DNA from: Candidatus Hydrogenedens sp.
GTDB taxonomy: Bacteria > Hydrogenedentota > Hydrogenedentia > Hydrogenedentales > Hydrogenedentaceae
DNA: 62,527 nucleotides
Direction of reading: 5' to 3'
Assembly (NCBI GenBank): GCA_049968235.1
Contig: JBMFRC010000017.1
Coordinates: forward strand, 1 to 62,527
The notes under the pieces were generated by a model. The model was given only the letters and a program-made list of their open reading frames with translations. It did not search any database and was not told the origin of the DNA. The position numbers were made by a program, and so were the translations under genes. This document shows, one piece after another, positions 29,751 through 53,063 of this stretch (position 1 is the stretch's first letter; every line of letters starts with the position of its first letter).

Positions 29751-31489
29751 TGATGAAAATTCCAGAATGGATGGAAGACGGCAGTTTATCGTGGAGCGAA
29801 AAGAAAGAAGAACCTTCATCTAAACCAGTAACGGATGAAACTCCACCTCCTCGAATCCCTGTCCGGGAGGATTTTTTGGATATAAATATAATAAGAAACA
29901 AAAAAATTGGAGATATGGATTTTCACGCAAATTGGACTCTTACCGACACGCTTCTTAGTTTTATCAATCCCTTTCTTATTTTAATATTACTATGGTCTAT
30001 TGTATTTTTTCTGTTGGATGTTCGATATATATATACTGAGGTGAATGATAGGAATTTAAGGTTTGTTGTTTTTTGTTTTATTTTAGGTGTTGTGGCTGTA
30101 AACAGGATTTTTGCCACAGAAAGTGTGGAAGATGGGGTTGTGTATGGTTTTGCTTTGGGTTTAACAATAAGTTTTTATGTTGTAGTTAGTACCTCTATGT
30201 ATGGAACAGGTTCCTTTATATATAACCTCGTGACAGGAAATAATTTTATGGCATTCTTGTCCAACATGGGCGTAGTAATATTTTTATGGTGGCTTACGAA
30301 CAGGATAACTTACGAATGTTGTATTGATGAAAATATAAATGCCGGAGCAATTGGTATTACTACCAGTTTGAGTAAAGCATTTGAAAAAAGTAAACAGCAA
30401 AAGCCCCGAAAAGACCCTAAAATGCAAGGTCCTGATTTATTCTATGAATTGGAAGCGGTTGACCCTACACAATTAATATTTAAAGACCCTTCAGTAAAAG
30501 ATATTACTTTTAATGTTATGGGATTTGGAGACCGACTTTCTAAGATTCCTGCAGGTATATCAATATTATTCTTCAGTATCCCTGTTATGGGGATTTTCTC
30601 TTTAGGACTTCGTATTCTCGTAAATGGGGGTCAGAAGATAGTAAACGTCGGATGGTTTTATCTTGTGTTGTATGTCTTTTCTGCTTTATTGCTTCTTGTT
30701 ATGACAAGTCTTGGAGGACTTAGAGAATATTATAAAGTGAGGAAAGTTGCCGTCCCTTCATTGTTAGGTATTACATGGGTAATTTCCGGGATGTTAATTA
30801 TTATTATTGCTATGGTAAGTTCTGCCTATCTTCCATTACCTGCATTGCCAAAACCTTTTTATGTTGCAGAACATCAAGTGGACCCCTGGGTTCGTGAAAG
30901 CACTTTTCAATTAAATCCGGTTGTAGCAACTCCCATGGAAATATGGGAACAACAGATGATATTCCAAAAATTAGGATATGTGATAATCACACTTCTTGTT
31001 TTTGTCAGTATGTGGATTCTGTTTCAGGTAATTAAAAGACTATTTATAGAGTGGTTACAGATATCCGTGCAGAAGGGTGGAATTGGATTTCAGTGGTTAA
31101 GAAAATTTGTTGAACGAAGACCTAAGCAATTAAAAATCAGGAAGAAAGTATCCGTAAGTAAATCTAAATCAATTAAATTTGTTAACTCGTTATCCCATCC
31201 AGAAATGAGTAAGAAATTTAATCCAAATGAGCATATTGAATATGCATATCAGGCACTTTGTGCTCTGGCAGAAGATCTAGGTGTGCCTAAGAAACATAGT
31301 GAAACCCCATTAGAATTTTTGAAAAATTTGCCACAAAGTTTAGAAGTATTACGCGAAGAGATAGAAGAAATTACTCAACTATATCAAATTGTCGTTTTTT
31401 CACCGATAGTGTTTGATGAAAAAATTCTGGACCGTTTACGCAAATTTTGGATTTCATATAATCGAGTGAGAAACAAAATTGTGTATTAA
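29750..31489 (+). CDS. Polytopic membrane protein with a C-terminal DUF4129-like domain.
   Basis: Multiple TMs. C-terminal HIEYAYQALCALAEDLGVPKKHSETPLEFLKNLPQ (xPETPxEF signature). TGATG overlap with the DUF58 gene. Confidence 0.55.
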   Translation: MMKIPEWMEDGSLSWSEKKEEPSSKPVTDETPPPRIPVREDFLDINIIRNKKIGDMDFHANWTLTDTLLSFINPFLILILLWSIVFFLLDVRYIYTEVNDRNLRFVVFCFILGVVAVNRIFATESVEDGVVYGFALGLTISFYVVVSTSMYGTGSFIYNLVTGNNFMAFLSNMGVVIFLWWLTNRITYECCIDENINAGAIGITTSLSKAFEKSKQQKPRKDPKMQGPDLFYELEAVDPTQLIFKDPSVKDITFNVMGFGDRLSKIPAGISILFFSIPVMGIFSLGLRILVNGGQKIVNVGWFYLVLYVFSALLLLVMTSLGGLREYYKVRKVAVPSLLGITWVISGMLIIIIAMVSSAYLPLPALPKPFYVAEHQVDPWVRESTFQLNPVVATPMEIWEQQMIFQKLGYVIITLLVFVSMWILFQVIKRLFIEWLQISVQKGGIGFQWLRKFVERRPKQLKIRKKVSVSKSKSIKFVNSLSHPEMSKKFNPNEHIEYAYQALCALAEDLGVPKKHSETPLEFLKNLPQSLEVLREEIEEITQLYQIVVFSPIVFDEKILDRLRKFWISYNRVRNKIVY

Positions 31490-41817: not shown

Positions 41818-44517
41818 CTATGCACCTCCGGGAGCAAAACCATCTTCTGTATTTGGGTCCTGATGATAATAACCACCAGAACTATTAAACAACTGAATAA
41901 CACGCAATATCTCGTTTAGATTTATTTGAAAGTCAGGTGGATTGTAATCTGCAGTATGGTTGGAGCAATTTCTGGGTCCGGTTGGGATTGGTGCATATCC
42001 ATCTTCCGTTCCCTGTTTACACGAATAACCTCCTGCATTGTAAAATTGAATTACACGAAGAAGTTCAACTAACTCAATTCGCCAATTGCCATTAGTATCA
42101 CAGTTATGGTAAGGTAAAACTTCTCCTTCCGCTTGTCCTTCGGGTATCCCCTCAGGTGTTCCTTCTAATGTTCCTTCTGTCGTTCCTTCAGAAATACCTT
42201 CAATAGTCCCTTCATTTCCACATGCGTTGAATATCAATACCCATTCTTCTACACGTCCCTGGCCTCCTGAAACAGCATCTGCAACCTGAAGTGTCCATGT
42301 GCCATACATATTTTCACCAGTGAAAGTTGATAGTGGCATAGCAGGTGCGAATACGCCTGTATAAGGACTTGAACCTGCTTCAAGAGATATAGATGATGAA
42401 TCGGAGAATACCGTATTTACCATATTGATACCCCCTTGCGGAACGGATGTGAATAAAAGGACCTCAGTTCCTAAAGGAGATATCAGTTTCATTCTTAATT
42501 GACTGACATCCGGATGAGTTACCGTTACACGAATTTTCACATTTTGAATAATTCTTGAAAGAGGAACTTGTAAAGGTAAGAAACTATTACCCGGGTCTAA
42601 TAATGTAGAAAAATGATTGGTTTTGAATTCAACATCACAATCCGGATATTGAATTTCCCCTTCTCCTTCTACGGGTGTTCCTTCCCCTTCTCCTTCTTCT
42701 CCTTCAGGTTCTTCACCTTCTAATGTTCCCTCGAAGGTTGTCCGGGGGCATATTCCATCGTAGCCAACCCAACACCCTTTTGCTTCTAAAAGTGGTATTT
42801 GTTCACATAACACTGATTCAGGTAAAGGATTCCCTTCTAAACCTATCTCATCACCTGAACCTAAACCTACATTCTGGATTAGTGATTGAATATCTTCAAT
42901 TTGATTGTCCCATAAGAATAAATGTTCTAAATTTTCTAAGTTTTGTAGAGCATGTATATCGGATATGTTATTTCGTCCTAAATTGAGTAGTTTAAGTCCG
43001 AATAATGAACTTAAAGGTGAAATATCAGTAATATTATTATTCCATAAAATAAGTGTCTCTAAATTTCTGATTTTATAAATTCCCGTCAAATTTTGAATAT
43101 TACGAGAAGAAGCGTTAAGGGTCTTCAAAATAACAAGGTCACCTTCATAAATATCTTTTGTTTGTTCGTACCCCAGTGCATCTTTTACTGCTGCTTCTAA
43201 ATTGGGGTCATCAAAATGAACTACTTCTCCGGCACCGAAAACATCAATTAGAACTTTTTGGGATAACACCTCTTCTGTTCCGGATACTGCTCTGCATTGA
43301 TATTCACCCTGACTGGAACCTGATATAGGGTTAATAACCCATTGATTTGAATTCGGTCCTGAAATAACACCGTTATGACTCCAGTAAAAAGTCGGTACTG
43401 TCGTTCCACCTTTTACTTTAAATAAAAGCACCGCCTCTTCACCCACATTATACAAACCACCAACAGGTTGAATGAGTATCTGGAGAGGGACTTTACGTAC
43501 ACCCAGATATACGCCCCATGATTGTCTTCCTCCTAATCGAGTTGATGGGTTATAAATTGATGCAGAATCAGAAACCGCAATAGAAAATCGTGCATTGTCT
43601 AAGATTGTTGCATAAGGAATAATATAAGTTGAAGAATTGGGTCCCACAATTTCAAATGATGAAGGGAAAGAGTAACCGTTTGAATCTGTTCTTAACCACT
43701 GGAAGGTTAAAGGACCATCTCCTCCGGTTACCTGTACAGAAAGTGTCGCCTGGTCTCCTGTATCAATAACACCTGGATTTGCCCCAATACCTATTATTCT
43801 CGGAGGAGGAACAATACTACATCTACTAAACCATACTTCGCGTGTACCTGCCCCGGAATATGCCTGGATATTCGTTTGTCCATTTCCATCTATATCTCCA
43901 CCTGCACCTAAATAATTGGTTCCTGTATTTCCAAATGTTACATAACGACTCGGTCCAAAATTAATATAGTCATCTAAATTAATATAATTTAAAGCCCAAC
44001 CATAACCTTCCCGTTCTGCAAAATATCGCACAAGGTCTTTTAAGAAATTATTCAGAAAATTAAATGTTACAGAATCTCCACAAGTCATATAGCCCGCAAG
44101 GAAATACTGAACCGCAAAAGCAAGGAGAGGGTCCTTGTTACGAAGTTCATTAATTACATCAAAGTGCATTGTTTGCCCTAATACATTCAAAGTAATATTT
44201 AAGTCTCTTTCTACTTGTTGCATATTGGCTCGAAAGCCTTCTTGTATGGATATAATTCTGTCTAAAGGAATTTGCGGAGAATTATTTAACAAGACTGCAG
44301 ATAGTAATCCAAGATGGTCTTCCTCTTTTAGTCCATTACCATCACGGTCAGCTCCATAAATATGAGCAAATCTTCCAGGTGCCATGTCATCTAAGGTATA
44401 GTCAACTGCCCATAAAATATAATCATAATCTACATCGATGCGGTCTGTGTATCCTGAAAATGAATATATCAATGAGATTGCCAGGATTAGAATGTTAAGT
44501 AAGTTTCTAACTTTCAT
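41818..44517 (-). CDS. Large secreted surface protein: internalin-like LRR region, Ig-like domains, proprotein-convertase P-domain, Glu/Gly linkers, and a C-terminal tandem EF-hand/dockerin-like module.
   Basis: Signal MKVRNLLNILILAISLIYSFS, with Shine-Dalgarno GGAGG before the internal ATG at 44517. 22-aa LRRs NLETLILWNNNITDISPLSSLFGLKLLNLGRNNISDIHALQNLENLEHLFLWDNQIEDIQSL. Ig-like FQWLRTDSNG and GEYQCRAVSG. P-domain IRVTVTHPDVSQLRMKLISPLGTEVLLF...GTWTLQVADAVSGGQG. C-terminal DTNGNWRIELVELLRVIQFYN...EDGYAP and a second copy. Confidence 0.7.
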   Translation of the reverse strand: MKVRNLLNILILAISLIYSFSGYTDRIDVDYDYILWAVDYTLDDMAPGRFAHIYGADRDGNGLKEEDHLGLLSAVLLNNSPQIPLDRIISIQEGFRANMQQVERDLNITLNVLGQTMHFDVINELRNKDPLLAFAVQYFLAGYMTCGDSVTFNFLNNFLKDLVRYFAEREGYGWALNYINLDDYINFGPSRYVTFGNTGTNYLGAGGDIDGNGQTNIQAYSGAGTREVWFSRCSIVPPPRIIGIGANPGVIDTGDQATLSVQVTGGDGPLTFQWLRTDSNGYSFPSSFEIVGPNSSTYIIPYATILDNARFSIAVSDSASIYNPSTRLGGRQSWGVYLGVRKVPLQILIQPVGGLYNVGEEAVLLFKVKGGTTVPTFYWSHNGVISGPNSNQWVINPISGSSQGEYQCRAVSGTEEVLSQKVLIDVFGAGEVVHFDDPNLEAAVKDALGYEQTKDIYEGDLVILKTLNASSRNIQNLTGIYKIRNLETLILWNNNITDISPLSSLFGLKLLNLGRNNISDIHALQNLENLEHLFLWDNQIEDIQSLIQNVGLGSGDEIGLEGNPLPESVLCEQIPLLEAKGCWVGYDGICPRTTFEGTLEGEEPEGEEGEGEGTPVEGEGEIQYPDCDVEFKTNHFSTLLDPGNSFLPLQVPLSRIIQNVKIRVTVTHPDVSQLRMKLISPLGTEVLLFTSVPQGGINMVNTVFSDSSSISLEAGSSPYTGVFAPAMPLSTFTGENMYGTWTLQVADAVSGGQGRVEEWVLIFNACGNEGTIEGISEGTTEGTLEGTPEGIPEGQAEGEVLPYHNCDTNGNWRIELVELLRVIQFYNAGGYSCKQGTEDGYAPIPTGPRNCSNHTADYNPPDFQINLNEILRVIQLFNSSGGYYHQDPNTEDGFAPGGA

Positions 44518-44771
44518 ATTTTGCCTCCAAATTATATACATATTTTTATTTATTCCTGATTAAATATTATATCCTATTTTTATTATATAACAAATCCATT
44601 AACAAAAATTAAATTAAAATGCCAAATTTTTAACATAATATTTTTGTATAAAAATATGTGATTCTTTATTGTAAAAATTGAAAAACAAGTTTGTTTTATT
44701 TTATATTTTAGTTTATACTTATATTGTGATTTAATTATGATATTTTTTAATTAAAAATAAAGGTAAATCAG

Positions 44772-46982
44772 ATGACAATGAAAGAGAGTAGATATAAAAT
44801 GAAAATCGAGTTTCTATTTTTTTTATTTTTATTCACAATATTTTGTTTATTTCCTCCTGTCTATGCTCAAGATATATTCGGATTGCTTTACAACGCTAAT
44901 GAAGGTTCTGGACATCAGGACCGTCCTTTAAATCTTGCAAATCGAACAGGGAACATTACAATTGATACAGACTCTATGTTGATATATGGCGATATTACTC
45001 CGACTCGTTATGGAGAAGAAGTGGCAGGAGTATGTGTGTTTCGTTTTAGTTATGTTAATTTAGGTCCTAATGTAAATGTAACAATTCAAGGGAAACGACC
45101 TCTGGCAATATTGTCTGCGACAGATATGGTTATCAATACAAATTTGATAGTTGCCCCTGGAACATTAGGAGGTGCTTTTGGTGGAGAAGGGGGCAAAGGT
45201 GGAGAAGGAGGTAAAGCAGGTAGTGGAATGGGTGCAGAAGGGGGTTTTGGTGGAAATGCAGGAGCGGGTGGCTTGGGTTACGATGAAGCAAGTAATGGTC
45301 ATGCGGGAACAGTTGGAACAAAAGGGAATAATTCGGGTCCTGGAACATGGGAAGGAGAATTTATCCCGGAAGGTGGAAGTGGTGAAAATGGCAAAGCAGG
45401 AAAGAACGGACAATGTTATATTTCTGCCAGTTCTTTGCTTATAGCAGGGGGTAGTGGAGGAGGTGGTGGCGGCGGTGGCGGCGGAAGAGGAGGTTCTGGT
45501 GATGGTGGCGGTGGCGGAGGTGGTGGTTCTGGAGGCGGTGGTGGTGGTGCTTTCACATTAATTCTTCCTACGGAAAAATCAGGTGAAGGGGGTGGGATTG
45601 GAACCTCTGTTGGTGGTGCCGGTGGAGATGGAGGTAGCGGTGGAAATGGTGGCACTGGGGCTTTAGGTGGTGCTGGAGGAGATAATTATCCATTAGGTTC
45701 TAAAGAGGTTGTTACACTGTTCATAAAAGATTATGGAGAAAATGGTGGAGATGGAGGCAAAGGTGGAACAGGTGGTGGTGCATTAATTTTAGGTGCAAGA
45801 GGAATGCTAACGCTTGGTAATAATATCATCATAGATATATCTGCTGGAATACCCGAAAATGGAACGACAGGTACAGGTGGTGGAGCAGGAGGGAGAGGAG
45901 GATATGGAACACCCGGTATGCTAAAACTTCAAGGTTCTCTTATTAACCTTCCTGCGGGTGTCTTACGCCCAACAATTAAAGCCAATTATTCGGGTGACCT
46001 TTACGCAGAATCAAATGGCAGGGTAACTTTAATCACAAATATGTCCCAATATTTACTTGGTTTTAGATTACCGAATTTTTCTAATCCGGGGACATTAATT
46101 GGTTGGACATTAAACAATTCTGTTTTGAGAGATTATAATGTGTTTAATCCGACAGAAGATACTCCCCTGATACCTGAATTAAGTTCCGGGCTTAATGTCG
46201 AAGGGTATTTGAATAATAATGTGCTTTATGAAAACATTATAGAAGCCACAGAACCGGAATCTGTTGTAAGAAATGTTGAACTCAAAAGAATTACCGGAAT
46301 TAATTCATATTTTGAAGGTTTTGACCATATTATTTTGATTAATCAGGGAGAGATTTATTTATCACGAGTATATTTAAAAGTAGGAAGTAATAATCCTATG
46401 CCTATTGGTTTTGGAACGGGAGACCTTGCAGTTGGTGCACGATGGACAACTTTAATTCCAACGACAAATCCTCTTACTGATGTAGAAGTAATAATTTTAG
46501 ATAATATTCCCGGGGAAGGTGAAGGGGTGTCAGAAGGAATAGTCGAAGGTGAAGGAGTAATAGAAGGAATAGCAGAAGGGGAGGGGATAGCCGAAGGTAT
46601 TATGGAAGGCGAAGGGCAACAGGAAGGAACTATTGAAGGAGCATCTGATGGTGAAGGAGTAGTAGAGGGAAGTTCAGAAGGGGAAATATGCACATATCAT
46701 TCTGCAGATACAAATAAAGACTGGATAATCAATCTTGCCGAATTGTTAAGAGCTATACAATTATTTAATTCTAATCAATATCATTGTGATGAAGCTACGG
46801 AGGATGGGTATGCTCCGGGAGCCGGATTACAAAATTGTCAACCCCATAAAAGTGATTATAGTCCTGTGTCCTGGAAAATAGAATTAAATGAACTATTGAG
46901 GCTTATACAATTTTTTAATTCCCCCGGAAGTAGATACCATTGTGATACGAATGGCGAAGATGGATACAATCCGGGAATATAA
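44772..46982 (+). CDS. Secreted Gly-rich surface protein; paralog of the N-terminal part of the 47110 gene, with the same C-terminal tandem EF-hand/dockerin-like module as the 41818 gene.
   Basis: Signal MKIEFLFFLFLFTIFCLFPPVYA. Conserved block CVFRFSYVNLGPNVNVTIQGKRPLAILSATDMVIN. About 250 aa of GGxGG low complexity. GTPGMLKLQGS...NGRVTLITNM. EGEG linker. C-terminal ICTYHSADTNKDWIINLAELLRAIQLFNS...EDGYAPG, then NCQPHKSDYSPVSWKIELNELLRLIQFFNS...EDGYNPGI. Confidence 0.7.
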   Translation: MTMKESRYKMKIEFLFFLFLFTIFCLFPPVYAQDIFGLLYNANEGSGHQDRPLNLANRTGNITIDTDSMLIYGDITPTRYGEEVAGVCVFRFSYVNLGPNVNVTIQGKRPLAILSATDMVINTNLIVAPGTLGGAFGGEGGKGGEGGKAGSGMGAEGGFGGNAGAGGLGYDEASNGHAGTVGTKGNNSGPGTWEGEFIPEGGSGENGKAGKNGQCYISASSLLIAGGSGGGGGGGGGGRGGSGDGGGGGGGGSGGGGGGAFTLILPTEKSGEGGGIGTSVGGAGGDGGSGGNGGTGALGGAGGDNYPLGSKEVVTLFIKDYGENGGDGGKGGTGGGALILGARGMLTLGNNIIIDISAGIPENGTTGTGGGAGGRGGYGTPGMLKLQGSLINLPAGVLRPTIKANYSGDLYAESNGRVTLITNMSQYLLGFRLPNFSNPGTLIGWTLNNSVLRDYNVFNPTEDTPLIPELSSGLNVEGYLNNNVLYENIIEATEPESVVRNVELKRITGINSYFEGFDHIILINQGEIYLSRVYLKVGSNNPMPIGFGTGDLAVGARWTTLIPTTNPLTDVEVIILDNIPGEGEGVSEGIVEGEGVIEGIAEGEGIAEGIMEGEGQQEGTIEGASDGEGVVEGSSEGEICTYHSADTNKDWIINLAELLRAIQLFNSNQYHCDEATEDGYAPGAGLQNCQPHKSDYSPVSWKIELNELLRLIQFFNSPGSRYHCDTNGEDGYNPGI
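45440..45560 (+). repeat. (GGN)n glycine-codon microsatellite-like tract inside the 44772 gene.
   Basis: ggtagtggaggaggtggtggcggcggtggcggcggaagaggaggttctggtgatggtggcggtggcggaggtggtggttctggaggcggtggtggtggt, encoding GGSGGGGGGGGGGRGGSGDGGGGGGGGSGGGGGG. Confidence 0.8.
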
Positions 46983-47109: not shown

Positions 47110-50100
47110 ATGAAAATTTATGTGCTCAAAAGTAGTATTGGTCTTTTGTTCGTATTTGCTGTGTGTATGCTGATACTAACATTAGACGCACATACTCAGA
47201 CTTCTTCGGCATATTATGTCGGAGACCCAAATGGTCCGGATTTGAATGCACCCAGTGGTTCAACACTGGTATTTAATACGGATGCATTGACCATGACAGG
47301 ACAAAATGGAGCAACGCCATTCAGTCATAATGCAAGTAATGAAGGTGGTGTTGCCGTTTATAGGTTTAAAAATGTCAATATTTCGACAGGTGTGACAATA
47401 AATGTATTAGGTTCAAGACCATTAGCTTTATCAGCCTATCGAGATATGTCAATTGCCTCCTCATTTAATGTAAATGGTTCAGTAGCGGGTCGTTCTGGTG
47501 GTGGTGTTGGCGGAAGTGGTGGTGTTGGGGGAGCAGGTCGCCCTGGTGGTTCAACGGCGGGTGCTGGTGGTGCGGGGGGGCCAGGCAGACCCGGTGGACC
47601 CGGTGCAGATTCTTTCTGGCAACAGGGACAACCCGGTCAAAATGGTGTAGGAGGTTCAGATGGTTCTCCTGGTCAAAATGGTTTTGCAGGTCAGAACGGT
47701 GGTGCAGGTGAGCCAGGTACTTTTGGATTTGGAACACAGGGGGGTCCTTCTGGAGGCACATTAGGTCAGGGTGGAACGGTAGGTGGTGCAGGTGCTCAAA
47801 ATGGAGTGGGTTCAACAGCAGTTGGTACTTTAGGTGGAGGTGGTAGTACAAGTTTCCCTCATGGTAGTAATGGTGGAAATGGAACAAATGCAAATTCATC
47901 TTTACCGGGAACAAATGGACAAAATGGACAGGCAGGTGAAAGTGGGAAAAATGGTGGAGATGGTTATAGTGGTGTTTTTAATGTTCCTGTTAATACATTA
48001 GATTTATTCGGTGGTGCTGGTGGAGGCGGAGGTGGAGGCGGAGGTGGAGGTCAAGGTGGTGGTCAAGGTGGTGGTGGAGGTGGTGGTGCTAGCGGAGGTA
48101 GTGGTGGTGGCGGTGGTGCAGGTGAGTATCTTGCGGACCGTGCAAATGGAGGTAGTGGTGGAGCCAGTGGAAAAGGTGGTGATGGTGGAAGAGGTGGTAA
48201 TGGAGGTGTTGGCGGAAGTGGAGGTAACGGTGGTAATGGAGCAAATGGTGGTGGTGCAATAATACTTTCTGCTCGTGGTTTATTAAGAGTTCCATCCCTT
48301 ATGACCGTAGATGTTTCCTGTACATCCCCTACAACAGGTTCTTCCGGTTCTCTTGCCCCTGCATTAGGGCAACCAGGTGGTCCTCAAGTAGGGTATCCAT
48401 CTACGGGAAGAGGTTTTGGACAGGCAGGTGGTGAAGGTCAAGTAATTAATTTGTTGTTATTTACCATTGAAGGAGGAGATGGCGGTAGAGGTGGAGATGG
48501 AAATTTAGGTGGTGCAGGTGGAAATGGAGCGGTAGGTGGTAACGGTGGTTCCGGTGGGAACGGTGGATATGCAACTCCGGGTATGGTTAAACTACATGGT
48601 TCTATTGTTATTGCCAATAATCTTGTTGTAACAGCAGGAGGAGCCAGAGATGCTTCTGCTGAGAATAATGGAAAATTAACACTAATTTCTAATATGAATG
48701 ATACATTGATTAATGCATATCAGCCGAATACTTCCCTTTCAACACCTACATTAGTTCGCGGTTCAACAACAAATCCTGCTATTCAAGGGATTTCTAATTT
48801 TACAGATGAAATTAGATTTCCTAATCATTATTATAAACATCCATTTATTCCGCAATTACTTCAAGGACCTTCCGTTGAAGGACTTTTACAGTCTCCATAC
48901 TGGAATGAGAGTTTTGTGAATGCTATAACACCCAATCAAGTTATTCCTGCTGGGGCACCGCCAATGACCCCAAGAGTAGTATTAAAAAGACTTAATTATG
49001 GATATGGAAATAATTACAGTCCATTTAAAGAGTTTGACCAGATTGTTGTTATCAATGAATCTTCAACACAAACATTTTCAGGTTTATATTTGAAAGTAGA
49101 TAATGCTACAGCGAATCCTCCTGCAACTCCGAAGAAAATTAATAATGGTACAGGAGAACTGGCACCGGGACAAATCTGGACAACGACAGTTCCGTATGAT
49201 GCTCAGGTAACATTATTACAATTGGCACAGATAACTCAGCAACCTACGGATGTCGCTGTTTGGCCCGGTGGTTATGCGCAATTTAGTGTTGTTGCCCAAA
49301 GTTCATCATCGATTGATTATCAGTGGTTCCGTAATACAGATGGAACATTCAGAGAGATAATAGGTGCTACAAATAGTTCGTATGAAATTTTAACTGTATC
49401 CGAAGCATTACAGGGATGGTATCGAGTACGTCTCAGAAATAATGCCGGAGATGTATTTTCAAGAGATGCTTTCCTGAATGTTCTTGAAGCACCCATTATT
49501 ACTCAACATCCGCAGGATGTAAATGAGTATCCTAATATGTTGGTTTCGTTTAATGTGGAAACATTGAAGCCTACAGACCCACCTCCTGCCCCGGGTATTG
49601 ACCCATCTATTGATTATACAATAGTAAGTCGTGGGTATCAGTGGCAGTTTGCTCCACAGTTAGAACCGCCTGAATTACCTCCTGAAACAGTTCCACCAAG
49701 TGAAAATTTCTATGATTTGCCGGGGGCTGATGCAAGAGAAAAAACATATAATATTGCATCAATAAGTGAGGCAAATCAAGGGTGGTATCGAGTTAAAGTA
49801 ATGAATGATACGGGAACCGCTATATCAAATCCAGCAAAGTTAAATGTCTATGATGGTGTTCGAATTTTAGAACAACCTACAAGTATATCCGCACCACCCC
49901 ATGCTAATGTTACATTCCAGACACGGGTAACGGGTGCGTTACCTATTTGGTGGCAATGGCAAGTAGCTCCATCTACAAATGGTCCATGGACAAATATTCC
50001 TGGACAAACCGGTTCGTATCCAATAGGAACTTCACCGAGTGGTAATCCACCAGGATTTACAATTACTGCTAATATCCTTGATGTTACAGCAAACGCGTAT

Positions 50101-51546
50101 TATCGTTGTAAAGTATTTAATGGCGGGAATCTATTAGGAGTTCTTACAGACCCAGCCTATTTAGAAATTCGTGACCCGGCTATTATGGTTCAGCCGACAT
50201 CTAAATCTGTAAATCCGGGACAGGCTGTAAACTTTGTCGTTTCGGCAGGTGGCTCAGGTGTCCTGACTTATAGATGGTATTTCTTCCCTGCAGATTTAGA
50301 TGGAGAAACAATGCCTCCTCCTCCGAATGTATGTGATTTACCTCAGCCATGTGCAGAGAATATTATATACCAAGGCTCAGGTTCTTCTTATGCAATCTAT
50401 AATATTTATGGTCCCCCAATAGGACCAGGTGCACAAGAATCCAACGAAGGTTATTACTATGTCCGTGTGGATAATTCAATGGGACATGTAGAGTCTGTCG
50501 TTGTTTACTTGAAAGTTAATGACCCACCTACAATTATAACTCAACCTGCTAATGATCAAGTGGATGAAGGTGGTGCTACGACATTGTCTGTAACTGCATA
50601 TAGCGGAACAAATGTTACATATCAGTGGCGATTGAATGGTATAAACCTTACAAGTGATGGAGTTCATATATTTGGAGCAACACTTAATGCATTACCGGGT
50701 ACCACAACAAGTACACTACAAATACTTGGTGCTCGTATAGAAGATGAAGGCTATTATGATGTTGTAATTACAAACTCTGCAGGTTATGTAATTTCTAATC
50801 AAGCTTACTTAATTGTTGGTGACCCATTGGAAATAGTAGAAACAGAGAATCCGGGCAAAGCATATATAAATTCGCCGGAAGTCCGGTTGAGTGTAACAAC
50901 ACAAGGTGGAAAGGGCACAAGAACCTATCAATGGTATAAGAATGGCACAGGTCCTTCGAATGCAATTGGCAGTCCTATTTTAAGTAATGCAGACCCATAC
51001 ACTGCATATCTGACTTTGTATGATGTTACCCTTGCAGATTCCGGTATCTACTACTGCAGTATCACGGATGCCCGGGGAACTCTTTGGACACCCGCGTTGC
51101 AGTTAACTATTTATGAACATTTGTCAACACCAATTATTGCCGGTGACCCAGAGGTAGAGAAGAAAGTCGGAGAATCGTATACATTTGAAGTAATCGTAAG
51201 TGGTGGTGTCCCACCGTTACATTACTTATGGCAACATGATGACCTGAATACAAAGACTGTTTATACAGTTGGAGGCGATTCTTCAATATTAACTCTTAAT
51301 GACCTACAGGTTACAGATTCCGGTGACTATTATGTTGTTGTGAGTGATAGCGGTGAAACATGGAATGAAGAAACACAACAATATGAACCCGAAACTAAGG
51401 TATCCAATCGGATACGATTGAATGTATCTCCAGAAATTCCTGCGGGAAATGTGTTTGGATATATTATCCTTGTGATGCTTATTACAATAATGGGTGTATA
51501 TGCAGTGAAACGGTTTGAAAGAAGACCGAAAAAACAGCACAGTTAG
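47110..51546 (+). CDS. Giant (1478 aa) secreted, C-terminally membrane-anchored protein: paralogous Gly-rich N-terminal region plus seven I-set Ig-like repeats.
   Basis: Strong Shine-Dalgarno AGGAGG. Signal/TM LLFVFAVCMLILTL. Block VAVYRFKNVNISTGVTINVLGSRPLALSAYRDMSI paralogous to the 44772 gene. GGxGG tract. ATPGMVKLHGS...NGKLTLISNM. Seven repeats of Y(Q/R)W...NG...G.Y.(C/V).(V/I).N..G (for example YQWFRNTDG...GWYRVRLRNNAGDV; YQWRLNG...GYYDVVITNSAGYV). C-terminus SPEIPAGNVFGYIILVMLITIMGVYAVKRFERRPKKQHS (TM plus basic tail). Confidence 0.75.
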   Translation: MKIYVLKSSIGLLFVFAVCMLILTLDAHTQTSSAYYVGDPNGPDLNAPSGSTLVFNTDALTMTGQNGATPFSHNASNEGGVAVYRFKNVNISTGVTINVLGSRPLALSAYRDMSIASSFNVNGSVAGRSGGGVGGSGGVGGAGRPGGSTAGAGGAGGPGRPGGPGADSFWQQGQPGQNGVGGSDGSPGQNGFAGQNGGAGEPGTFGFGTQGGPSGGTLGQGGTVGGAGAQNGVGSTAVGTLGGGGSTSFPHGSNGGNGTNANSSLPGTNGQNGQAGESGKNGGDGYSGVFNVPVNTLDLFGGAGGGGGGGGGGGQGGGQGGGGGGGASGGSGGGGGAGEYLADRANGGSGGASGKGGDGGRGGNGGVGGSGGNGGNGANGGGAIILSARGLLRVPSLMTVDVSCTSPTTGSSGSLAPALGQPGGPQVGYPSTGRGFGQAGGEGQVINLLLFTIEGGDGGRGGDGNLGGAGGNGAVGGNGGSGGNGGYATPGMVKLHGSIVIANNLVVTAGGARDASAENNGKLTLISNMNDTLINAYQPNTSLSTPTLVRGSTTNPAIQGISNFTDEIRFPNHYYKHPFIPQLLQGPSVEGLLQSPYWNESFVNAITPNQVIPAGAPPMTPRVVLKRLNYGYGNNYSPFKEFDQIVVINESSTQTFSGLYLKVDNATANPPATPKKINNGTGELAPGQIWTTTVPYDAQVTLLQLAQITQQPTDVAVWPGGYAQFSVVAQSSSSIDYQWFRNTDGTFREIIGATNSSYEILTVSEALQGWYRVRLRNNAGDVFSRDAFLNVLEAPIITQHPQDVNEYPNMLVSFNVETLKPTDPPPAPGIDPSIDYTIVSRGYQWQFAPQLEPPELPPETVPPSENFYDLPGADAREKTYNIASISEANQGWYRVKVMNDTGTAISNPAKLNVYDGVRILEQPTSISAPPHANVTFQTRVTGALPIWWQWQVAPSTNGPWTNIPGQTGSYPIGTSPSGNPPGFTITANILDVTANAYYRCKVFNGGNLLGVLTDPAYLEIRDPAIMVQPTSKSVNPGQAVNFVVSAGGSGVLTYRWYFFPADLDGETMPPPPNVCDLPQPCAENIIYQGSGSSYAIYNIYGPPIGPGAQESNEGYYYVRVDNSMGHVESVVVYLKVNDPPTIITQPANDQVDEGGATTLSVTAYSGTNVTYQWRLNGINLTSDGVHIFGATLNALPGTTTSTLQILGARIEDEGYYDVVITNSAGYVISNQAYLIVGDPLEIVETENPGKAYINSPEVRLSVTTQGGKGTRTYQWYKNGTGPSNAIGSPILSNADPYTAYLTLYDVTLADSGIYYCSITDARGTLWTPALQLTIYEHLSTPIIAGDPEVEKKVGESYTFEVIVSGGVPPLHYLWQHDDLNTKTVYTVGGDSSILTLNDLQVTDSGDYYVVVSDSGETWNEETQQYEPETKVSNRIRLNVSPEIPAGNVFGYIILVMLITIMGVYAVKRFERRPKKQHS
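48000..48125 (+). repeat. (GGN)n glycine-codon tract inside the 47110 gene.
   Basis: ggtggtgctggtggaggcggaggtggaggcggaggtggaggtcaaggtggtggtcaaggtggtggtggaggtggtggtgctagcggaggtagtggtggtggcggtggtgca. Confidence 0.8.
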
Positions 51547-51647: not shown

Positions 51648-53063
51648 ATGCTTATTATGATTAATTTTATATTTTATTTTTCGATGTTCATTTTCAATGG
51701 AATAGAAACAATTTCAGAAGAAATTAGACTCTTGCCTGTTTATCAATTAACTTTTTCAGCGAAAAATCATGAATTAGACAATAACGATAATTTTTCGTAT
51801 GATGACAGATTTATTTGTTATGACACGAGAGGAAGTTTAGGTTATGGGATAGAAAATTGTACAAGTATTGAAATAGTAGAAATCTCAACAGGGAAAGAGA
51901 TAAAAATATATCAACCTAATAAAATACGATTAGGTACAAAACCTGCTCCGGGAATTGGTGCTGTTTCATTTCATCCACAAGAATATTCATTAGTTTTCAT
52001 TCACGGTCCTGAAATTCAAAATTTATATAATCCCATTCAAATTGAAGATATTTATTCAAAAACAAATCGGCGAGGTTGTATTATTTCTCTAAGTGAAGAT
52101 TTAATCGTAAAAAACAGAACTTGGGTTGATTTCAGGTCCGTTTCTTGTGATACAGAAATTCCGCCAGGGGCACAAAGGGGAGGGTCACATCGACATGAAT
52201 ATTCACTGAATGGTAAAAGGATAGGTTGTACTTATGATGATAAATTACTACCACAGTATGGCAGGACAATCGCATATTTTGAAAAAACAGATACATTATT
52301 ACCCAATGCAAGTTATTATTTTGCTCTACTTGTTAAAGTAGTGCCACCAGAACTCGCAAAAGAGGGCGATTTTGTTAAGGCTTTGGGTGACTCATGGGTT
52401 GACCCGGAAGGGAAAATGAGAGCATTTATTGGGACTATCAAAGAAGGAGAAAACTTTGTAGATTATTTGTGCATTGTTGAAATACCCGAAGATGTAGATA
52501 TTCAATCTTCAAAATCTGGAAGTTGTATAGAATATCCTGAACCTCCGAAAGGGCTTAATGTATATAAAATCACAAAAGTAAACTGCTCAGGGATTGTTCG
52601 TTGTTCTTATGATGGTAAAAGAATAGCCTATCTTGATAAAGATATAAATGGGAAAACTCAAATTTTTATGATAACAAAGAAAAAAGAAGATGAGAGAAAA
52701 TCATTTGAATATTCACAACCTATTCAAGTTACATTTTTGCCTAATGGTGTTGAAGATAATATGAGATGGCATCCTTCTAACAATATAATATTTTCGATTA
52801 GCGAAGGGGCCATTATTGCTGTATATGTTAAGGAAGGAAAAAATTTCGGAAAATCTATTTTTATTACACCAAAATATAAGATAAATAAGCCATATGCATT
52901 AGTAGTATCGAGAAAAGGAGAGTATTTAGCCTTTAACCGCTGTGTTCCAACTTATGATGAAAGGGGTGTAAGATTGTTTTCAACAGAAGGTAAGGATTTT
53001 TCTCAGATATTTTTACTGAGATTCAAAGGTGGTGATACAGATATTTTTACTCATATAGAGTAA
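51648..53063 (+). CDS. Hypothetical TolB-like beta-propeller protein (PD40-like repeats).
   Basis: FSYDDRFICYDTRGS and CSYDGKRIAYLDKDINGKTQIFMI resemble PD40 / WD40-like beta-propeller repeats. N-terminal hydrophobic segment. 471 aa. Confidence 0.4.
   Translation: MLIMINFIFYFSMFIFNGIETISEEIRLLPVYQLTFSAKNHELDNNDNFSYDDRFICYDTRGSLGYGIENCTSIEIVEISTGKEIKIYQPNKIRLGTKPAPGIGAVSFHPQEYSLVFIHGPEIQNLYNPIQIEDIYSKTNRRGCIISLSEDLIVKNRTWVDFRSVSCDTEIPPGAQRGGSHRHEYSLNGKRIGCTYDDKLLPQYGRTIAYFEKTDTLLPNASYYFALLVKVVPPELAKEGDFVKALGDSWVDPEGKMRAFIGTIKEGENFVDYLCIVEIPEDVDIQSSKSGSCIEYPEPPKGLNVYKITKVNCSGIVRCSYDGKRIAYLDKDINGKTQIFMITKKKEDERKSFEYSQPIQVTFLPNGVEDNMRWHPSNNIIFSISEGAIIAVYVKEGKNFGKSIFITPKYKINKPYALVVSRKGEYLAFNRCVPTYDERGVRLFSTEGKDFSQIFLLRFKGGDTDIFTHIE

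What the first reader, a model, noticed from the sequence alone, without database searches (positions are those of the whole stretch)
47110..51546. 1478-aa protein with seven eukaryote-type I-set Ig repeats and an unusual C-terminal anchor (SPEIPAG + TM + basic tail)
Seven repeats carry the I-set signature Y(Q/R)W...NG on strand C and G(W/Y)Y.(C/V).(V/I).N..G on strand F: 49200-51400, for example GWYRVRLRNNAGDV, GWYRVKVMNDTGTAI, AYYRCKVFNGGNL, GYYYVRVDNSMGHV, GYYDVVITNSAGYV, GIYYCSITDARGTL, GDYYVVVSDSGET. This is the titin/hemicentin-like consensus. The protein ends RLNVSPEIPAGNVFGYIILVMLITIMGVYAVKRFERRPKKQHS. The layout resembles PEP-CTERM/LPXTG-type sorting signals (short motif, TM, basic tail) but matches neither consensus. 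It could be a variant sorting signal for an uncharacterised exosortase/sortase-like system.
Basis: seen in the sequence. Interest (0 to 1): 0.5.

Follow-up and report, generated by a model that had tools for sequence, protein, structure and literature searches.

The report
Surface adhesin with uncatalogued sorting-type tail
This gene encodes a large adhesin-like surface protein of the uncultured bacterium Candidatus Hydrogenedens, and its C-terminal tail is a diverged copy of a conserved tail on hundreds of unrelated surface proteins in that phylum, which looks like a protein-sorting signal no curated database describes and whose processing enzyme is unknown.

Summary
ORF 47110..51546(+) encodes a 1478-aa protein with a signal peptide, a ~670-aa Gly-rich beta-helix, seven I-set-like Ig repeats and a motif/TM/basic tail. 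The window is a Candidatus Hydrogenedens MAG contig, and NCBI calls the gene 'immunoglobulin domain-containing protein'.

The tail is a lineage-drifted version of a phylum-wide C-terminal module with consensus G-[VLI]-P-[VA]-A-G-x-x-G-L-(10 aa)-G-A-x-x-L-R-R-R-K-end. A tail-only profile finds 710 clusters (50% identity) at E<=1e-3. 138 of the best 150 matches end within 2 residues of the C-terminus. The carriers have varied domain architectures, and every named carrier is from Hydrogenedentota. The module meets the published attributes of tripartite sorting signals but stays below the cut-offs of IPTL-CTERM, PEP-CTERM and LPXTG.

'SPEIPAG' itself is lineage-specific. The conserved core is I-P...G...G plus a basic end, and the window tail scores only 5.4 bits against the canonical profile.

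No exosortase, sortase, rhomboid or CPBP gene was found in the window or beside 59 tail-bearing loci, so processing is inferred rather than shown. A plain membrane anchor remains a real rival.

Verdict: a new variant of a known kind, of moderate interest.

The parts
47110..51546 (+). Complete ORF of 1478 aa plus stop codon. It corresponds to NCBI MGC8739138.1, 'immunoglobulin domain-containing protein', Candidatus Hydrogenedens sp.
   Evidence: The cluster member P0073 lies on a contig of 62527 bp, the same length as the window.
47110..47196 (+). Sec-type signal peptide, about residues 1-29 (MKIYVLKSSIGLLFVFAVCMLILTLDAHT). The cleavage site was not predicted with a dedicated tool.
   Evidence: The sequence shows a basic n-region followed by a hydrophobic h-region. 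AlphaFold2 models a helix at residues 2-23, followed by a low-confidence linker.
47197..49212 (+). N-terminal Gly-rich, adhesin-like right-handed beta-helix domain, about residues 30-701. It has no Pfam or NCBIfam model.
   Evidence: - No family hit.
- AlphaFold2 mean pLDDT 81.9, pTM 0.70.
- Foldseek against PDB finds nothing significant.
- The domain is conserved in P0001-P0020 and in the upstream paralogue.
49222..49488 (+). Ig repeat 1 (residues 705-793).
   Evidence: Ig_3 E=1.5e-6 (29.0 bits, cut-off 30) and I-set E=7e-4. Modelled as a beta-sandwich.
49489..49854 (+). Ig repeat 2 (residues 794-915), with a Pro-rich insertion.
   Evidence: No Pfam hit when scanned alone. The internal-repeat HMM gives E=3.9e-12. 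The core is modelled as beta strands and the insertion has low pLDDT.
49855..50175 (+). Ig repeat 3 (residues 916-1022).
   Evidence: No Pfam hit when scanned alone. The internal-repeat HMM gives E=8.8e-7. Modelled as a beta-sandwich.
50176..50523 (+). Ig repeat 4 (residues 1023-1138), with an insertion.
   Evidence: Ig_3 E=1.7e-4 (22.4 bits, below the cut-off of 30). The internal-repeat HMM gives E=7e-14.
50524..50823 (+). Ig repeat 5 (residues 1139-1238).
   Evidence: Ig_3 E=6.7e-11 and I-set E=1.2e-8. This is the best Ig_3 stretch in the whole-protein scan.
50824..51117 (+). Ig repeat 6 (residues 1239-1336).
   Evidence: Ig_3 E=2.4e-8, V-set E=1.3e-5 and I-set E=1.9e-5.
51118..51426 (+). 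Ig repeat 7 (residues 1337-1439).
   Evidence: Ig_3 E=6.7e-9 and I-set E=4.5e-6.
51427..51462 (+). Signature-motif part of the tail, SPEIPAGNVFGY (residues 1440-1451). I-P corresponds to the family's [VLI]2-P3, and the G of VFG corresponds to G9.
   Evidence: - It sits in register with the 34-tail alignment and the 149-tail logo.
- It is 88% identical across the orthologue group, against 84% for the whole protein.
- It lies in a low-pLDDT linker just before the TM helix.
51463..51507 (+). Hydrophobic transmembrane core IILVMLITIMGVYAV (residues 1452-1466). It contains the conserved G that corresponds to family position G21.
   Evidence: AlphaFold2 models a helix at about residues 1448-1469. 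A hydrophobicity scan supports it. Orthologues are only 45% identical here.
51508..51543 (+). Basic cytoplasmic end KRFERRPKKQHS (residues 1467-1478). It is a drifted, interrupted equivalent of the family's RRRK terminus.
   Evidence: K1467 aligns with family position R26. Orthologues are 42% identical here.
44772..46982 (+). Upstream paralogue of 736 aa. It has the same N-terminal beta-helix domain but no TM tail, and ends in two EF-hand-like 'LLRxIQxFN' modules. It is context for the rule that homologues carry different C-termini.
   Evidence: 39% identity to the target's N-terminal domain. No Pfam or NCBIfam family. The C-terminus gives only a sub-threshold EF-hand_6 hit.

Best explanation
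**What the protein is.** It is a fibrillar-adhesin-like surface protein of Candidatus Hydrogenedens. It has four parts:
- a Sec signal peptide;
- a ~670-aa Gly-rich right-handed beta-helix, the presumed binding head;
- a stalk of seven I-set-like Ig domains;
- a C-terminal tripartite tail.

**What the tail is.** It is the drifted local version of a phylum-wide, still uncurated C-terminal module. The consensus is G-[VLI]-P-[VA]-A-G-x-x-G-L-x-x-L-A-x-x-x-A-L-G-G-A-x-x-L-R-R-R-K at the very end of the protein.

**Proposed mechanism.**
1. After Sec export, the hydrophobic helix and the basic cluster hold the C-terminus in the cytoplasmic membrane, following the positive-inside rule.
2. This places the conserved Pro/Gly motif at the outer face of the membrane.
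3. A shared membrane-embedded sorting enzyme recognises the motif there.
4. By analogy with PEP-CTERM/exosortase, PGF-CTERM/archaeosortase and LPXTG/sortase, the enzyme probably cleaves the tail and passes the protein to its final surface attachment.

**Shown:** the domain architecture, the existence, position and conservation of the tail family, its modular spread over unrelated proteins, and its absence from curated models.

**Inferred:** recognition, cleavage and transfer, the identity of the enzyme, and the adhesive function.
For: **Architecture**
- Ig domains.
- Beta-helix.

**Tail family**
- In 34 homologue tails the Pro is invariant and G9, G21 and R26 are at least 90% conserved, with fixed spacing. 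The window tail fits in register.
- An exhaustive profile search of 1.84e9 representatives gave 710 clusters at E<=1e-3 and 35 at E<=1e-10.
- 138 of the best 150 matches end within 2 residues of the C-terminus. The logo reads P3 100%, G6 87%, G9 94%, L10 88%, G21 97%, R26 96%, R27 89%.
- All 61 HMM hits among 5246 ORFs of the fetched loci are C-terminal.

**Modularity**
- The 63 carriers scanned include Ig_3, DUF5011-type, HYR, PKD, SprB, fn3, Flg_new, LDL-receptor B, TIG, beta-helix and laminin-G architectures.
- 1876 of 4753 carrier pairs show no BLASTP similarity outside the tail.
- 68 of 86 full-length carriers have an N-terminal hydrophobic leader, by a heuristic.

**Several carriers per genome**
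- Two adjacent carriers occur on L030, L044 and L091.
- At least three lie on chromosome OY782877.1.

**Homologues with other C-termini**
- P0068 has a T9SS tail, several Verrucomicrobia-type hits end in FYRL, and the window's own paralogues end in a different module.

**Link to the window**
- The full-length orthologue P0007 (60% identical) carries a canonical tail at the same position, scoring 35.5 bits.
- The motif SPEIPAGNVFGY is conserved (88%) in the orthologue group.
- P0041, a different protein, shares IPAxNV[FW].

**Published criteria**
- These features match the attributes listed for tripartite sorting signals in bioRxiv 10.1101/2023.06.07.544157, section 5.
Against: - **No enzyme.** None of the following was found in the window, in the syntenic relative, or among about 282 genes in 59 tail-bearing loci: exosortase, archaeosortase, sortase, rhomboid, CPBP.
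- **Weak local signal.** The window tail scores only 5.4 bits against the canonical tail HMM.
- **Lost positions.** G6 is replaced by N, L10 by Y, and the Arg cluster is interrupted (KRFERR).
- **Relaxed constraint.** In the window's orthologue group the TM core and the basic end are only 45% and 42% identical, against 84% for the whole protein. That is what a generic anchor would show.
- **Composition is not a full explanation.** Contigs at 0.40-0.43 GC keep canonical tails.
- **Little room for a protease.** The tail follows the last Ig strand after only 2-4 residues.
- **No experimental data** exist for any member.
Confidence: 0.55

Rival explanations
1. The tail is a plain stop-transfer anchor. 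It is simply a C-terminal transmembrane helix with a positive-inside cytoplasmic stub, and it keeps the adhesin permanently tethered to the cytoplasmic membrane as a type I membrane protein. No dedicated enzyme recognises or cleaves it. This could be true at least in this AT-rich lineage, where an ancestral signal may have decayed.
For: - The window tail scores 5.4 bits against the canonical profile.
- The TM core and basic end are poorly conserved among close orthologues, at 45% and 42%.
- No candidate enzyme is nearby.
- A search for further AT-type tails found nothing.
Against: - Generic anchors do not keep an invariant Pro and Gly residues conserved at 94-97% at fixed spacing across hundreds of otherwise unrelated proteins.
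- The motif part is conserved in the window's orthologue group (88%), and a non-orthologous protein, P0041, shares it.
- G9 and G21 are retained in the window tail.
- A 1478-aa adhesin tethered only to the inner membrane of a presumably diderm cell would not reach the surface. This last point is inference.
Confidence: 0.3
2. The tail is a divergent member of an existing curated class, IPTL-CTERM or PEP-CTERM, and an ordinary exosortase (EpsH/Xrt family) encoded elsewhere in the genome processes it.
For: - IPTL-CTERM (TIGR04174) is the nearest model. Canonical tails score up to 19.5 bits against a cut-off of 20.5, and 2 of 100 reach E<=5e-4.
- Both have [IV]-P-x-x at the start, a Gly/Ala/Leu-rich TM segment and an RRR end.
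- Wzy_C+TPR and PMT_2+TPR membrane proteins recur near tail genes, a faint echo of the accessory genes of exosortase systems.
Against: - The window tail hits neither model even at E<=10.
- 98 of 100 canonical tails stay below the approximate IPTL-CTERM cut-off, and none reaches PEP-CTERM, with 7-12 bits against a cut-off of 16.
- There is no PEP motif.
- No exosortase was seen in any locus examined.
- The TPR hits are generic and lie far below the curated cut-offs: PrsT at most 176 against 312, and PEP_O_lig_1 29 against 188.
Confidence: 0.15
3. An intramembrane protease of the rhomboid type, working like a rhombosortase, cleaves the tail inside or at the edge of the TM helix. The conserved helix-destabilising glycines and an A/G small-residue site ([VLI]2-P-[VA]-A5|G6) would define the cut.
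For: G6, G9 and G21 are nearly invariant inside or next to the TM segment, position 5 is small (A 70%), and position 2 is hydrophobic. From general knowledge of rhomboid substrates, this resembles their preference for a large hydrophobic P4 residue, a small P1 residue and helix-breaking residues. This is inference only.
Against: No rhomboid gene was seen in the window or the loci. The tail does not hit the GlyGly-CTERM model. The motif match rests on reasoning, not on a test.
Confidence: 0.08
4. The Ig array is a recent acquisition from a eukaryote, so that 'eukaryote-type' means horizontal transfer.
For: The top structural matches are eukaryotic I-set arrays such as titin, Robo2, contactin and DSCAM.
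Against: - Identity to those arrays is only 14-18%.
- The same architecture is found in dozens of diverged Hydrogenedentota homologues.
- Bacterial GhpA Ig arrays also match (E=6e-20).
- The GC content of the gene fits its Gly-rich composition and the region shows no foreign-DNA signature.
- NCBI routinely annotates such bacterial proteins as 'immunoglobulin domain-containing protein'.
Confidence: 0.03

Closest known systems
IPTL-CTERM sorting domain (TIGR04174 / PF18203)
   Same: It starts with [IV]-P-x-[LV], continues with a Gly/Ala/Leu-rich TM helix and ends in an Arg cluster at the extreme C-terminus. It is found on surface proteins; for example, the Methylomirabilis S-layer protein is predicted to carry it (PMC8671808). 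It is the best-scoring curated model for canonical Hydrogenedentota tails.
   Different: - Scores stay below the cut-off: best 19.5 against 20.5, with 2 of 100 tails near it.
- The window tail gives no hit.
- The signature differs: G-V-P-V-A-G-x-x-G-L with G21, where IPTL-CTERM, as I recall it and did not check here, has an IPTL..WG-type motif.
- The taxon differs (Hydrogenedentota).
PEP-CTERM / exosortase (TIGR02595; XrtA/EpsH)
   Same: It has the same tripartite layout of motif, TM helix and Arg cluster. It occurs many times per genome on unrelated secreted proteins of environmental diderm bacteria, and its target genes are scattered rather than clustered with the enzyme.
   Different: There is no Pro-Glu-Pro motif. 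HMM scores are 7-12 bits against a cut-off of 16, and 0 of 100 tails reach it. No exosortase was found in the sequence examined.
LPXTG / sortase cell-wall anchors (TIGR01167, PF00746)
   Same: It has a short motif, a TM helix and a basic tail at the C-terminus of adhesins with Ig-like stalks.
   Different: There is no LPXTG motif. Scores are 8-14 bits against a cut-off of 15.9. The spacing from motif to TM helix is shorter. The host phylum is not a classical monoderm.
Fibrillar adhesins, defined as stalk plus adhesive domain plus anchor (PMC9210967)
   Same: It is a long secreted protein with a terminal non-repeat domain, a stalk of tandem Ig-like domains and a C-terminal anchoring element.
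   Different: The head is an unmodelled Gly-rich beta-helix rather than a known adhesive domain. The anchor is the uncurated tail. Adhesion has not been tested.
TpsA and autotransporter beta-helix adhesins (EtpA, HMW1, FHA, VacA)
   Different: There is no sequence-level family hit and no significant Foldseek match. The protein has no TPS secretion partner and no C-terminal beta-barrel. Its export and anchoring logic is different, with a C-terminal TM helix.
Titin-type and cell-adhesion-molecule I-set Ig arrays, and bacterial GhpA
   Same: It has tandem I-set-like beta-sandwiches with the Y-x-W motif of strand C and the G-x-Y-x-[CV] motif of strand F. Foldseek gives 1.3e-27 to titin I65-I70 and 6e-20 to GhpA.
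   Different: Identity is 14-18%. There is no B-F disulfide pair, and Cys occurs only in the F strands of r3 and r6 (sequence). Several repeats carry Pro-rich insertions.

Membership tests
[quoted passage not shown] | 1. [quoted passage not shown] | tested here: met
   138 of 150 best matches end within 2 residues of the end. All 61 hits among 5246 ORFs are C-terminal. In the window protein the tail is the last 39 residues.
[quoted passage not shown] | 2. [quoted passage not shown] | tested here: inconclusive
   Met for relatives: L030, L044 and L091 each have two adjacent carriers, and at least three carriers lie on chromosome OY782877.1. It could not be counted for the window's own genome. 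No other carrier is present in the 62.5-kb window.
[quoted passage not shown] | 3. [quoted passage not shown] | tested here: met
   For the family: P3 100%, G6 87%, G9 94%, L10 88%. The window tail keeps P3 and G9 but has N at position 6 and Y at position 10.
[quoted passage not shown] | 4. A strongly hydrophobic segment consistent with a TM helix | tested here: met
   A hydrophobicity scan supports it. AlphaFold2 models a helix at about residues 1448-1469.
[quoted passage not shown] | 5. A cluster of 2-5 basic residues, mostly Arg, at the end | tested here: met
   For the family: R26 96%, R27 89%, R28 71%, K/R29 82%. The window version KRFERRPKKQHS is basic but interrupted and longer.
[quoted passage not shown] | 6. 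Most carriers have an N-terminal signal peptide | tested here: met
   68 of 86 full-length-looking carriers have an N-terminal hydrophobic h-region. This is a heuristic, not a dedicated predictor. The target itself has one.
[quoted passage not shown] | 7. Numerous carrier pairs share no similarity outside the signal | tested here: met
   1876 of 4753 pairs (39.5%) have no BLASTP hit at E<=1e-3 after the tail is removed. 24 of 63 carriers lack Ig_3 and carry other domain types.
[quoted passage not shown] | 8. Homologues elsewhere lack the signal or carry a different one | tested here: met
   P0068 has a T9SS Por_Secre_tail, and P0054, P0061, P0065, P0067 and P0069 end in an (F/Y)(F/Y)R(L/V) motif. 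The window paralogue 44772..46982 has the same N-terminal domain but a different C-terminal module.
[quoted passage not shown] | A cognate sorting enzyme co-occurs with the signal | not testable with these tools
   Whole genomes could not be searched. No candidate was found in the window, in the syntenic relative, or in 59 tail-bearing loci.
PEP-CTERM (TIGR02595) | HMM score at or above the curated cut-off (16 bits) and a Pro-Glu-Pro signature | tested here: not met
   The window tail gives no hit at E<=10. Canonical tails score 7-12 bits. None of 100 reaches E<=5e-4. There is no PEP motif.
IPTL-CTERM (TIGR04174 / PF18203) | HMM score at or above the curated cut-off (20.5 bits NCBIfam, 20.8 bits Pfam) | tested here: not met
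   The window tail gives no hit. The best canonical tail scores 19.5 bits. Only 2 of 100 reach E<=5e-4.
LPXTG sortase signal (TIGR01167 / PF00746) | An LPXTG motif and an HMM score at or above the cut-off | tested here: not met
   The sequence has no LPXTG. Canonical tails score 8-14 bits against 15.9, and the window tail gives no hit.
Immunoglobulin I-set / Ig_3 domains (PF07679, PF13927) | Pfam score above the gathering threshold, and a beta-sandwich fold | tested here: met
   Ig_3 135.3 bits against 30, and I-set 95.5 bits against 23.7. Seven beta-sandwiches are modelled. The top structural match is titin I65-I70.
TpsA / autotransporter adhesins | A TPS secretion domain with a TpsB partner, or a C-terminal beta-barrel translocator | tested here: not met
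   There is no such Pfam or NCBIfam hit. The C-terminus is a single TM helix. Only a fold-level resemblance exists for the beta-helix.

The most novel reading that the evidence does not exclude
The G-[VLI]-P-[VA]-A-G...G...RRRK tail is the recognition signal of a protein-sorting system specific to Hydrogenedentota. Its enzyme would belong to none of the known sorting-enzyme families (sortase, exosortase/archaeosortase, rhombosortase, CPBP-type myxosortase). The window's lineage would carry a co-evolved variant of the signal, IPAxNV[FW].
Probability: 0.15. Interest if true: 0.75.

Novelty: new variant of a known kind. Interest (0 to 1): 0.45.

Why it matters
Hydrogenedentota are uncultured bacteria that are common in anaerobic digesters and sediments, and almost nothing is known about their cell envelope. 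A single conserved tail shared by hundreds of large adhesin-like proteins gives three practical gains:
- It provides a simple sequence handle, an HMM, for listing the phylum's surface proteome.
- It allows a search for the matching processing enzyme by phylogenetic profiling.
- It allows better annotation of proteins that are now called only 'immunoglobulin domain-containing' or 'hypothetical'.

If the enzyme turns out to be new, it would add another class to the sortase, exosortase, rhombosortase and myxosortase series. If the tail is only an anchor, the strict conservation of Pro and Gly positions across unrelated proteins would itself need explaining.

Tried and rejected
- **Word-indexed tail searches.** The 46-column profile returned only two fragments because candidate selection fails on low-complexity tails. 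The AT-type tail alignment returned nothing.
- **Exact look-up of the window protein in the contig index.** Not on record.
- **Enzyme hunt by neighbourhood**.
  - Found: FtsW/RodA, GT4, T2SS-F, sulfatase, SSF symporter, MarC, MBOAT, TspO-like, PASTA and Mur ligase.
  - Recurrent: Wzy_C+TPR and PMT_2+TPR proteins. None reaches an exosortase-associated cut-off, so they are a lead only.
  - Rejected: two 'unknown polytopic' ORFs (L084, L114), which are antisense artefacts in GC-rich DNA.
- **AT drift as the sole cause of the window tail's divergence.** Only partly accepted. G+A+R content tracks GC (rho 0.59), but contigs at 0.40-0.43 GC keep canonical tails.
- **Literature.**
  - No paper links Hydrogenedentes or Hydrogenedentota with exosortase or PEP-CTERM.
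  - The broader surface-protein search listed no paper mentioning the phylum.
  - A look-up under my recalled PMC id for the 2012 archaeosortase/exosortase paper returned nothing.
- **C-terminal module of the neighbouring paralogues.** Only a sub-threshold EF-hand_6 hit and no PDB sequence match.
- **Eukaryotic origin of the Ig array.** Rejected; see the rival explanations.

Full report
**Observation**

It runs 47110..51546 on the + strand and encodes 1478 aa ending ...RLNVSPEIPAGNVFGYIILVMLITIMGVYAVKRFERRPKKQHS. A cluster look-up shows that the window is a 62,527-bp MAG contig of Candidatus Hydrogenedens sp. The protein is NCBI MGC8739138.1, annotated 'immunoglobulin domain-containing protein'.

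Pfam finds Ig_3 (E=1.1e-39, five stretches) and I-set (2e-27, four stretches). When the repeats are scanned separately, r1, r4, r5, r6 and r7 hit Ig_3/I-set. Only r5-r7 clear the gathering cut-offs on their own, and r1 and r4 fall just below. r2 and r3 do not hit because of long Pro-rich insertions. An HMM built from r1/r5/r6/r7 recovers r4, r2 and r3 at E=7e-14, 4e-12 and 9e-7.

AlphaFold2 models seven beta-sandwiches (pLDDT 83) followed by a short low-confidence linker that contains SPEIPAG. A single helix follows at about residues 1448-1469. Foldseek's best match is titin I65-I70 (1.3e-27), followed by Robo2, contactin and DSCAM. The bacterial 'grappling hook' protein GhpA also matches (6e-20). 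The seven I-set-like repeats and the motif/TM/basic tail are therefore real.

**The rest of the protein**

Residues 30-701 are extremely Gly-rich and match no Pfam or NCBIfam model. With an alignment of 22 homologues, AlphaFold2 gives pLDDT 81.9 and pTM 0.70. Foldseek finds nothing significant in the PDB.

- VacA and autotransporter passengers

The overall layout is a signal peptide, a beta-helical head, an Ig stalk and a C-terminal anchor. This is the layout of a fibrillar adhesin (concept from PMC9210967, listed). Adhesion itself is inferred.

**The tail is not private to this gene**

Of 69 homologues, all named ones come from Hydrogenedentota. The close orthologues P0001-P0006 (79-91% identical) keep SPEIP[AVI]GN-type tails. 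Almost all more distant homologues end in a much more regular element.

An alignment of 34 such tails gives the consensus GVPVxGxxGLxxLAxxxALxGAxxLRRRK. The Pro is invariant, G9, G21 and R26 are at least 90% conserved, and the length is fixed. The window tail EIPAGNVFGYIILVMLITIMGVYAVKR fits in register at P3, G9, G21 and K26. The full-length orthologue P0007 (60% identical) has a canonical tail at the same place.

**Phylum-wide spread**

I ran an exhaustive HMMER search of 1.84 billion cluster representatives with a 46-column tail profile. It found 710 clusters at E<=1e-3 and 35 at E<=1e-10, in proteins from 45 to 3552 aa long.
- In the best 150, the match ends within 2 residues of the C-terminus in 138 cases.
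- The logo is P3 100%, G6 87%, G9 94%, L10 88%, A18 85%, G21 97%, R26 96%, R27 89%.
- Of 63 carriers scanned with Pfam, 39 have Ig_3. The others carry DUF5011-type, HYR, PKD, SprB, fn3, Flg_new, LDL-receptor B, TIG, beta-helix or laminin-G domains.
- After the tail is removed, 1876 of 4753 carrier pairs show no BLASTP similarity.
- Every carrier that has a source name is from Hydrogenedens or Hydrogenedentota.

A degenerate DNA pattern for the invariant positions retrieved 120 metagenome loci. 54 of them contain a true in-frame C-terminal tail, and three contain two adjacent carriers. All 61 tail-HMM hits among 5246 ORFs in the held loci are C-terminal.

**Comparison with known signals**

The published attributes of tripartite sorting signals are:
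- a position close to the C-terminus;
- several copies per genome;
- at least three near-invariant motif residues;
- a TM segment;
- an Arg cluster;
- N-terminal signal peptides;
- unrelated carriers;
- homologues with other C-termini (bioRxiv 10.1101/2023.06.07.544157, section 5).

The family meets all of them, with one limit: copies per genome could be shown only for relatives, not for the window's own MAG.

No curated model covers the tail.
- The window tail hits nothing in NCBIfam or Pfam.
- Canonical tails come nearest to IPTL-CTERM, at best 19.5 bits against a cut-off of 20.5.
- They score 7-12 bits against PEP-CTERM (cut-off 16) and 8-14 bits against LPXTG (cut-off 15.9).
- In a sample of 100 tails, two reach roughly the IPTL-CTERM cut-off and none reaches PEP-CTERM.

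**Caveats specific to the window**

The local tail is a strongly drifted member. It scores 5.4 bits against the canonical tail HMM. That is the best of the 71 ORF C-termini in the window, but it is weak.

Base composition explains part of this. The G+A+R content of tails tracks contig GC (rho=0.59). However, contigs at 0.40-0.43 GC still carry canonical GIPVAGVFGLG...RRRQR tails scoring 37-40 bits.

Within the orthologue group the motif SPEIPAGNVFGY is 88% identical, against 84% for the whole protein. The TM core and the basic end are only 45% and 42% identical. So the motif is under constraint here, but the remainder behaves like a generic anchor.

One other protein from Ca. Hydrogenedens, P0041, is 24% identical to the target and ends KPIPAYNVWYLG... 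It shares IPAxNV[FW]. This hints at a lineage-wide variant of the motif. A database search for more such tails found nothing.

**The enzyme**

None was found.
- The window contains no exosortase-, sortase-, rhomboid- or CPBP-like ORF. Its polytopic ORFs are transporter-sized proteins, a 7-TM protein with a DUF4129 domain, and a signal peptidase II homologue identified in the syntenic relative.
- Neighbourhoods of carriers on long contigs are not conserved.
- Among about 282 genes in 59 tail-positive loci, the membrane proteins are ordinary envelope and transport proteins.
- The only recurrent ones are Wzy_C+TPR and PMT_2+TPR proteins, which lie far below any curated exosortase-associated cut-off.
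- Scattered targets are normal for many-to-one sorting systems, so this neither supports nor refutes processing.
- Whole genomes could not be searched with the tools left.

**Conclusion**

The protein is a beta-helix plus Ig-stalk surface protein. Its tail descends from a conserved, uncurated, Hydrogenedentota-wide C-terminal module that has the hallmarks of a sorting signal.

I rate the reading that the family is a processed sorting signal at about 0.55. I rate a plain anchor at about 0.3, particularly for this drifted copy. Membership in IPTL-CTERM or PEP-CTERM was tested and is not met. Functionally these remain the best analogues.

The finding is a new variant of a known kind and is of moderate interest.

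Noticed in passing
window 44772..46982 (+) and 41818..44541 (-); also L102:3-1787: Two neighbouring surface-protein genes lack the TM tail. The 736-aa one is a paralogue of the target's beta-helix domain, and the 907-aa one has Ig_3, LRR and P_proprotein domains. Both end in repeats of a ~45-aa module, D-x-N-x-D-W-x-I-x-L-x-E-LLR-x-IQ-x-FN...YHCD...EDGY-PG. This may be an EF-hand- or dockerin-like alternative attachment module. It gives only a sub-threshold EF-hand_6 hit (14 bits) and no PDB sequence match.
   Followed up: partly
window 47197..49212 (+), residues 30-701 of the target: The Gly-rich N-terminal domain has dozens of invariant glycines, including a conserved poly-Gly run (GGGGGGGGGGGQGGGQGGGGGGG). 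AlphaFold2 places long GGX-rich stretches at pLDDT 60-80 with no DSSP secondary structure, between beta-helix rungs. No Pfam model and no Foldseek PDB match exist. It may be an unusual solenoid variant.
   Followed up: partly
L003, L005, L027, L048, L050, L116 (loci with tail-bearing genes): Polytopic membrane proteins fused to TPR repeats recur within 10 kb of tail-bearing genes: Wzy_C/O-antigen-ligase-like in L005, L048 and L116, PMT_2 in L003 (twice) and L050, and an 8-TM+TPR protein in L027. They could be glycosylation or ligation partners, or simply high-copy families in this phylum.
   Followed up: partly
P0041 (Ca. Hydrogenedens sp.), P0021, P0044: Other Ig proteins from AT-rich relatives have similarly drifted tails, for example KPIPAYNVWYLGILITIISVISSVLIIQRKLQRQ. 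P0041 shares IPAxNV[FW] with the window tail. This suggests a lineage-wide shift of the motif rather than decay in one gene.
   Followed up: partly
window 47465..47914 (-) and 48011..48262 (+): Two ORFs of 149 and 83 aa lie inside the target gene, one on the opposite strand and one in another frame. Their products are His/Leu/Pro-rich or Val/Glu-rich, which marks them as artefacts of the Gly-codon repeats and not genes.
   Followed up: no
window 51648..53063 (+): The gene immediately downstream encodes a 471-aa DUF3748 protein with an N-terminal hydrophobic segment. It is syntenic in the closest relative. No link to the tail is evident.
   Followed up: no
window 28440..31489 (+): A DUF58 protein is followed by a 7-TM protein with a C-terminal DUF4129 domain. 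This pair appears unrelated to the finding.
   Followed up: no
P0054, P0061, P0065, P0067, P0069 (distant Ig-protein hits; the only one with an organism name, P0061, is Verrucomicrobiae): These proteins end in a different short C-terminal motif...(F/Y)(F/Y)R(L/V)..., with no TM segment. This may be another lineage-specific C-terminal signal.
   Followed up: no
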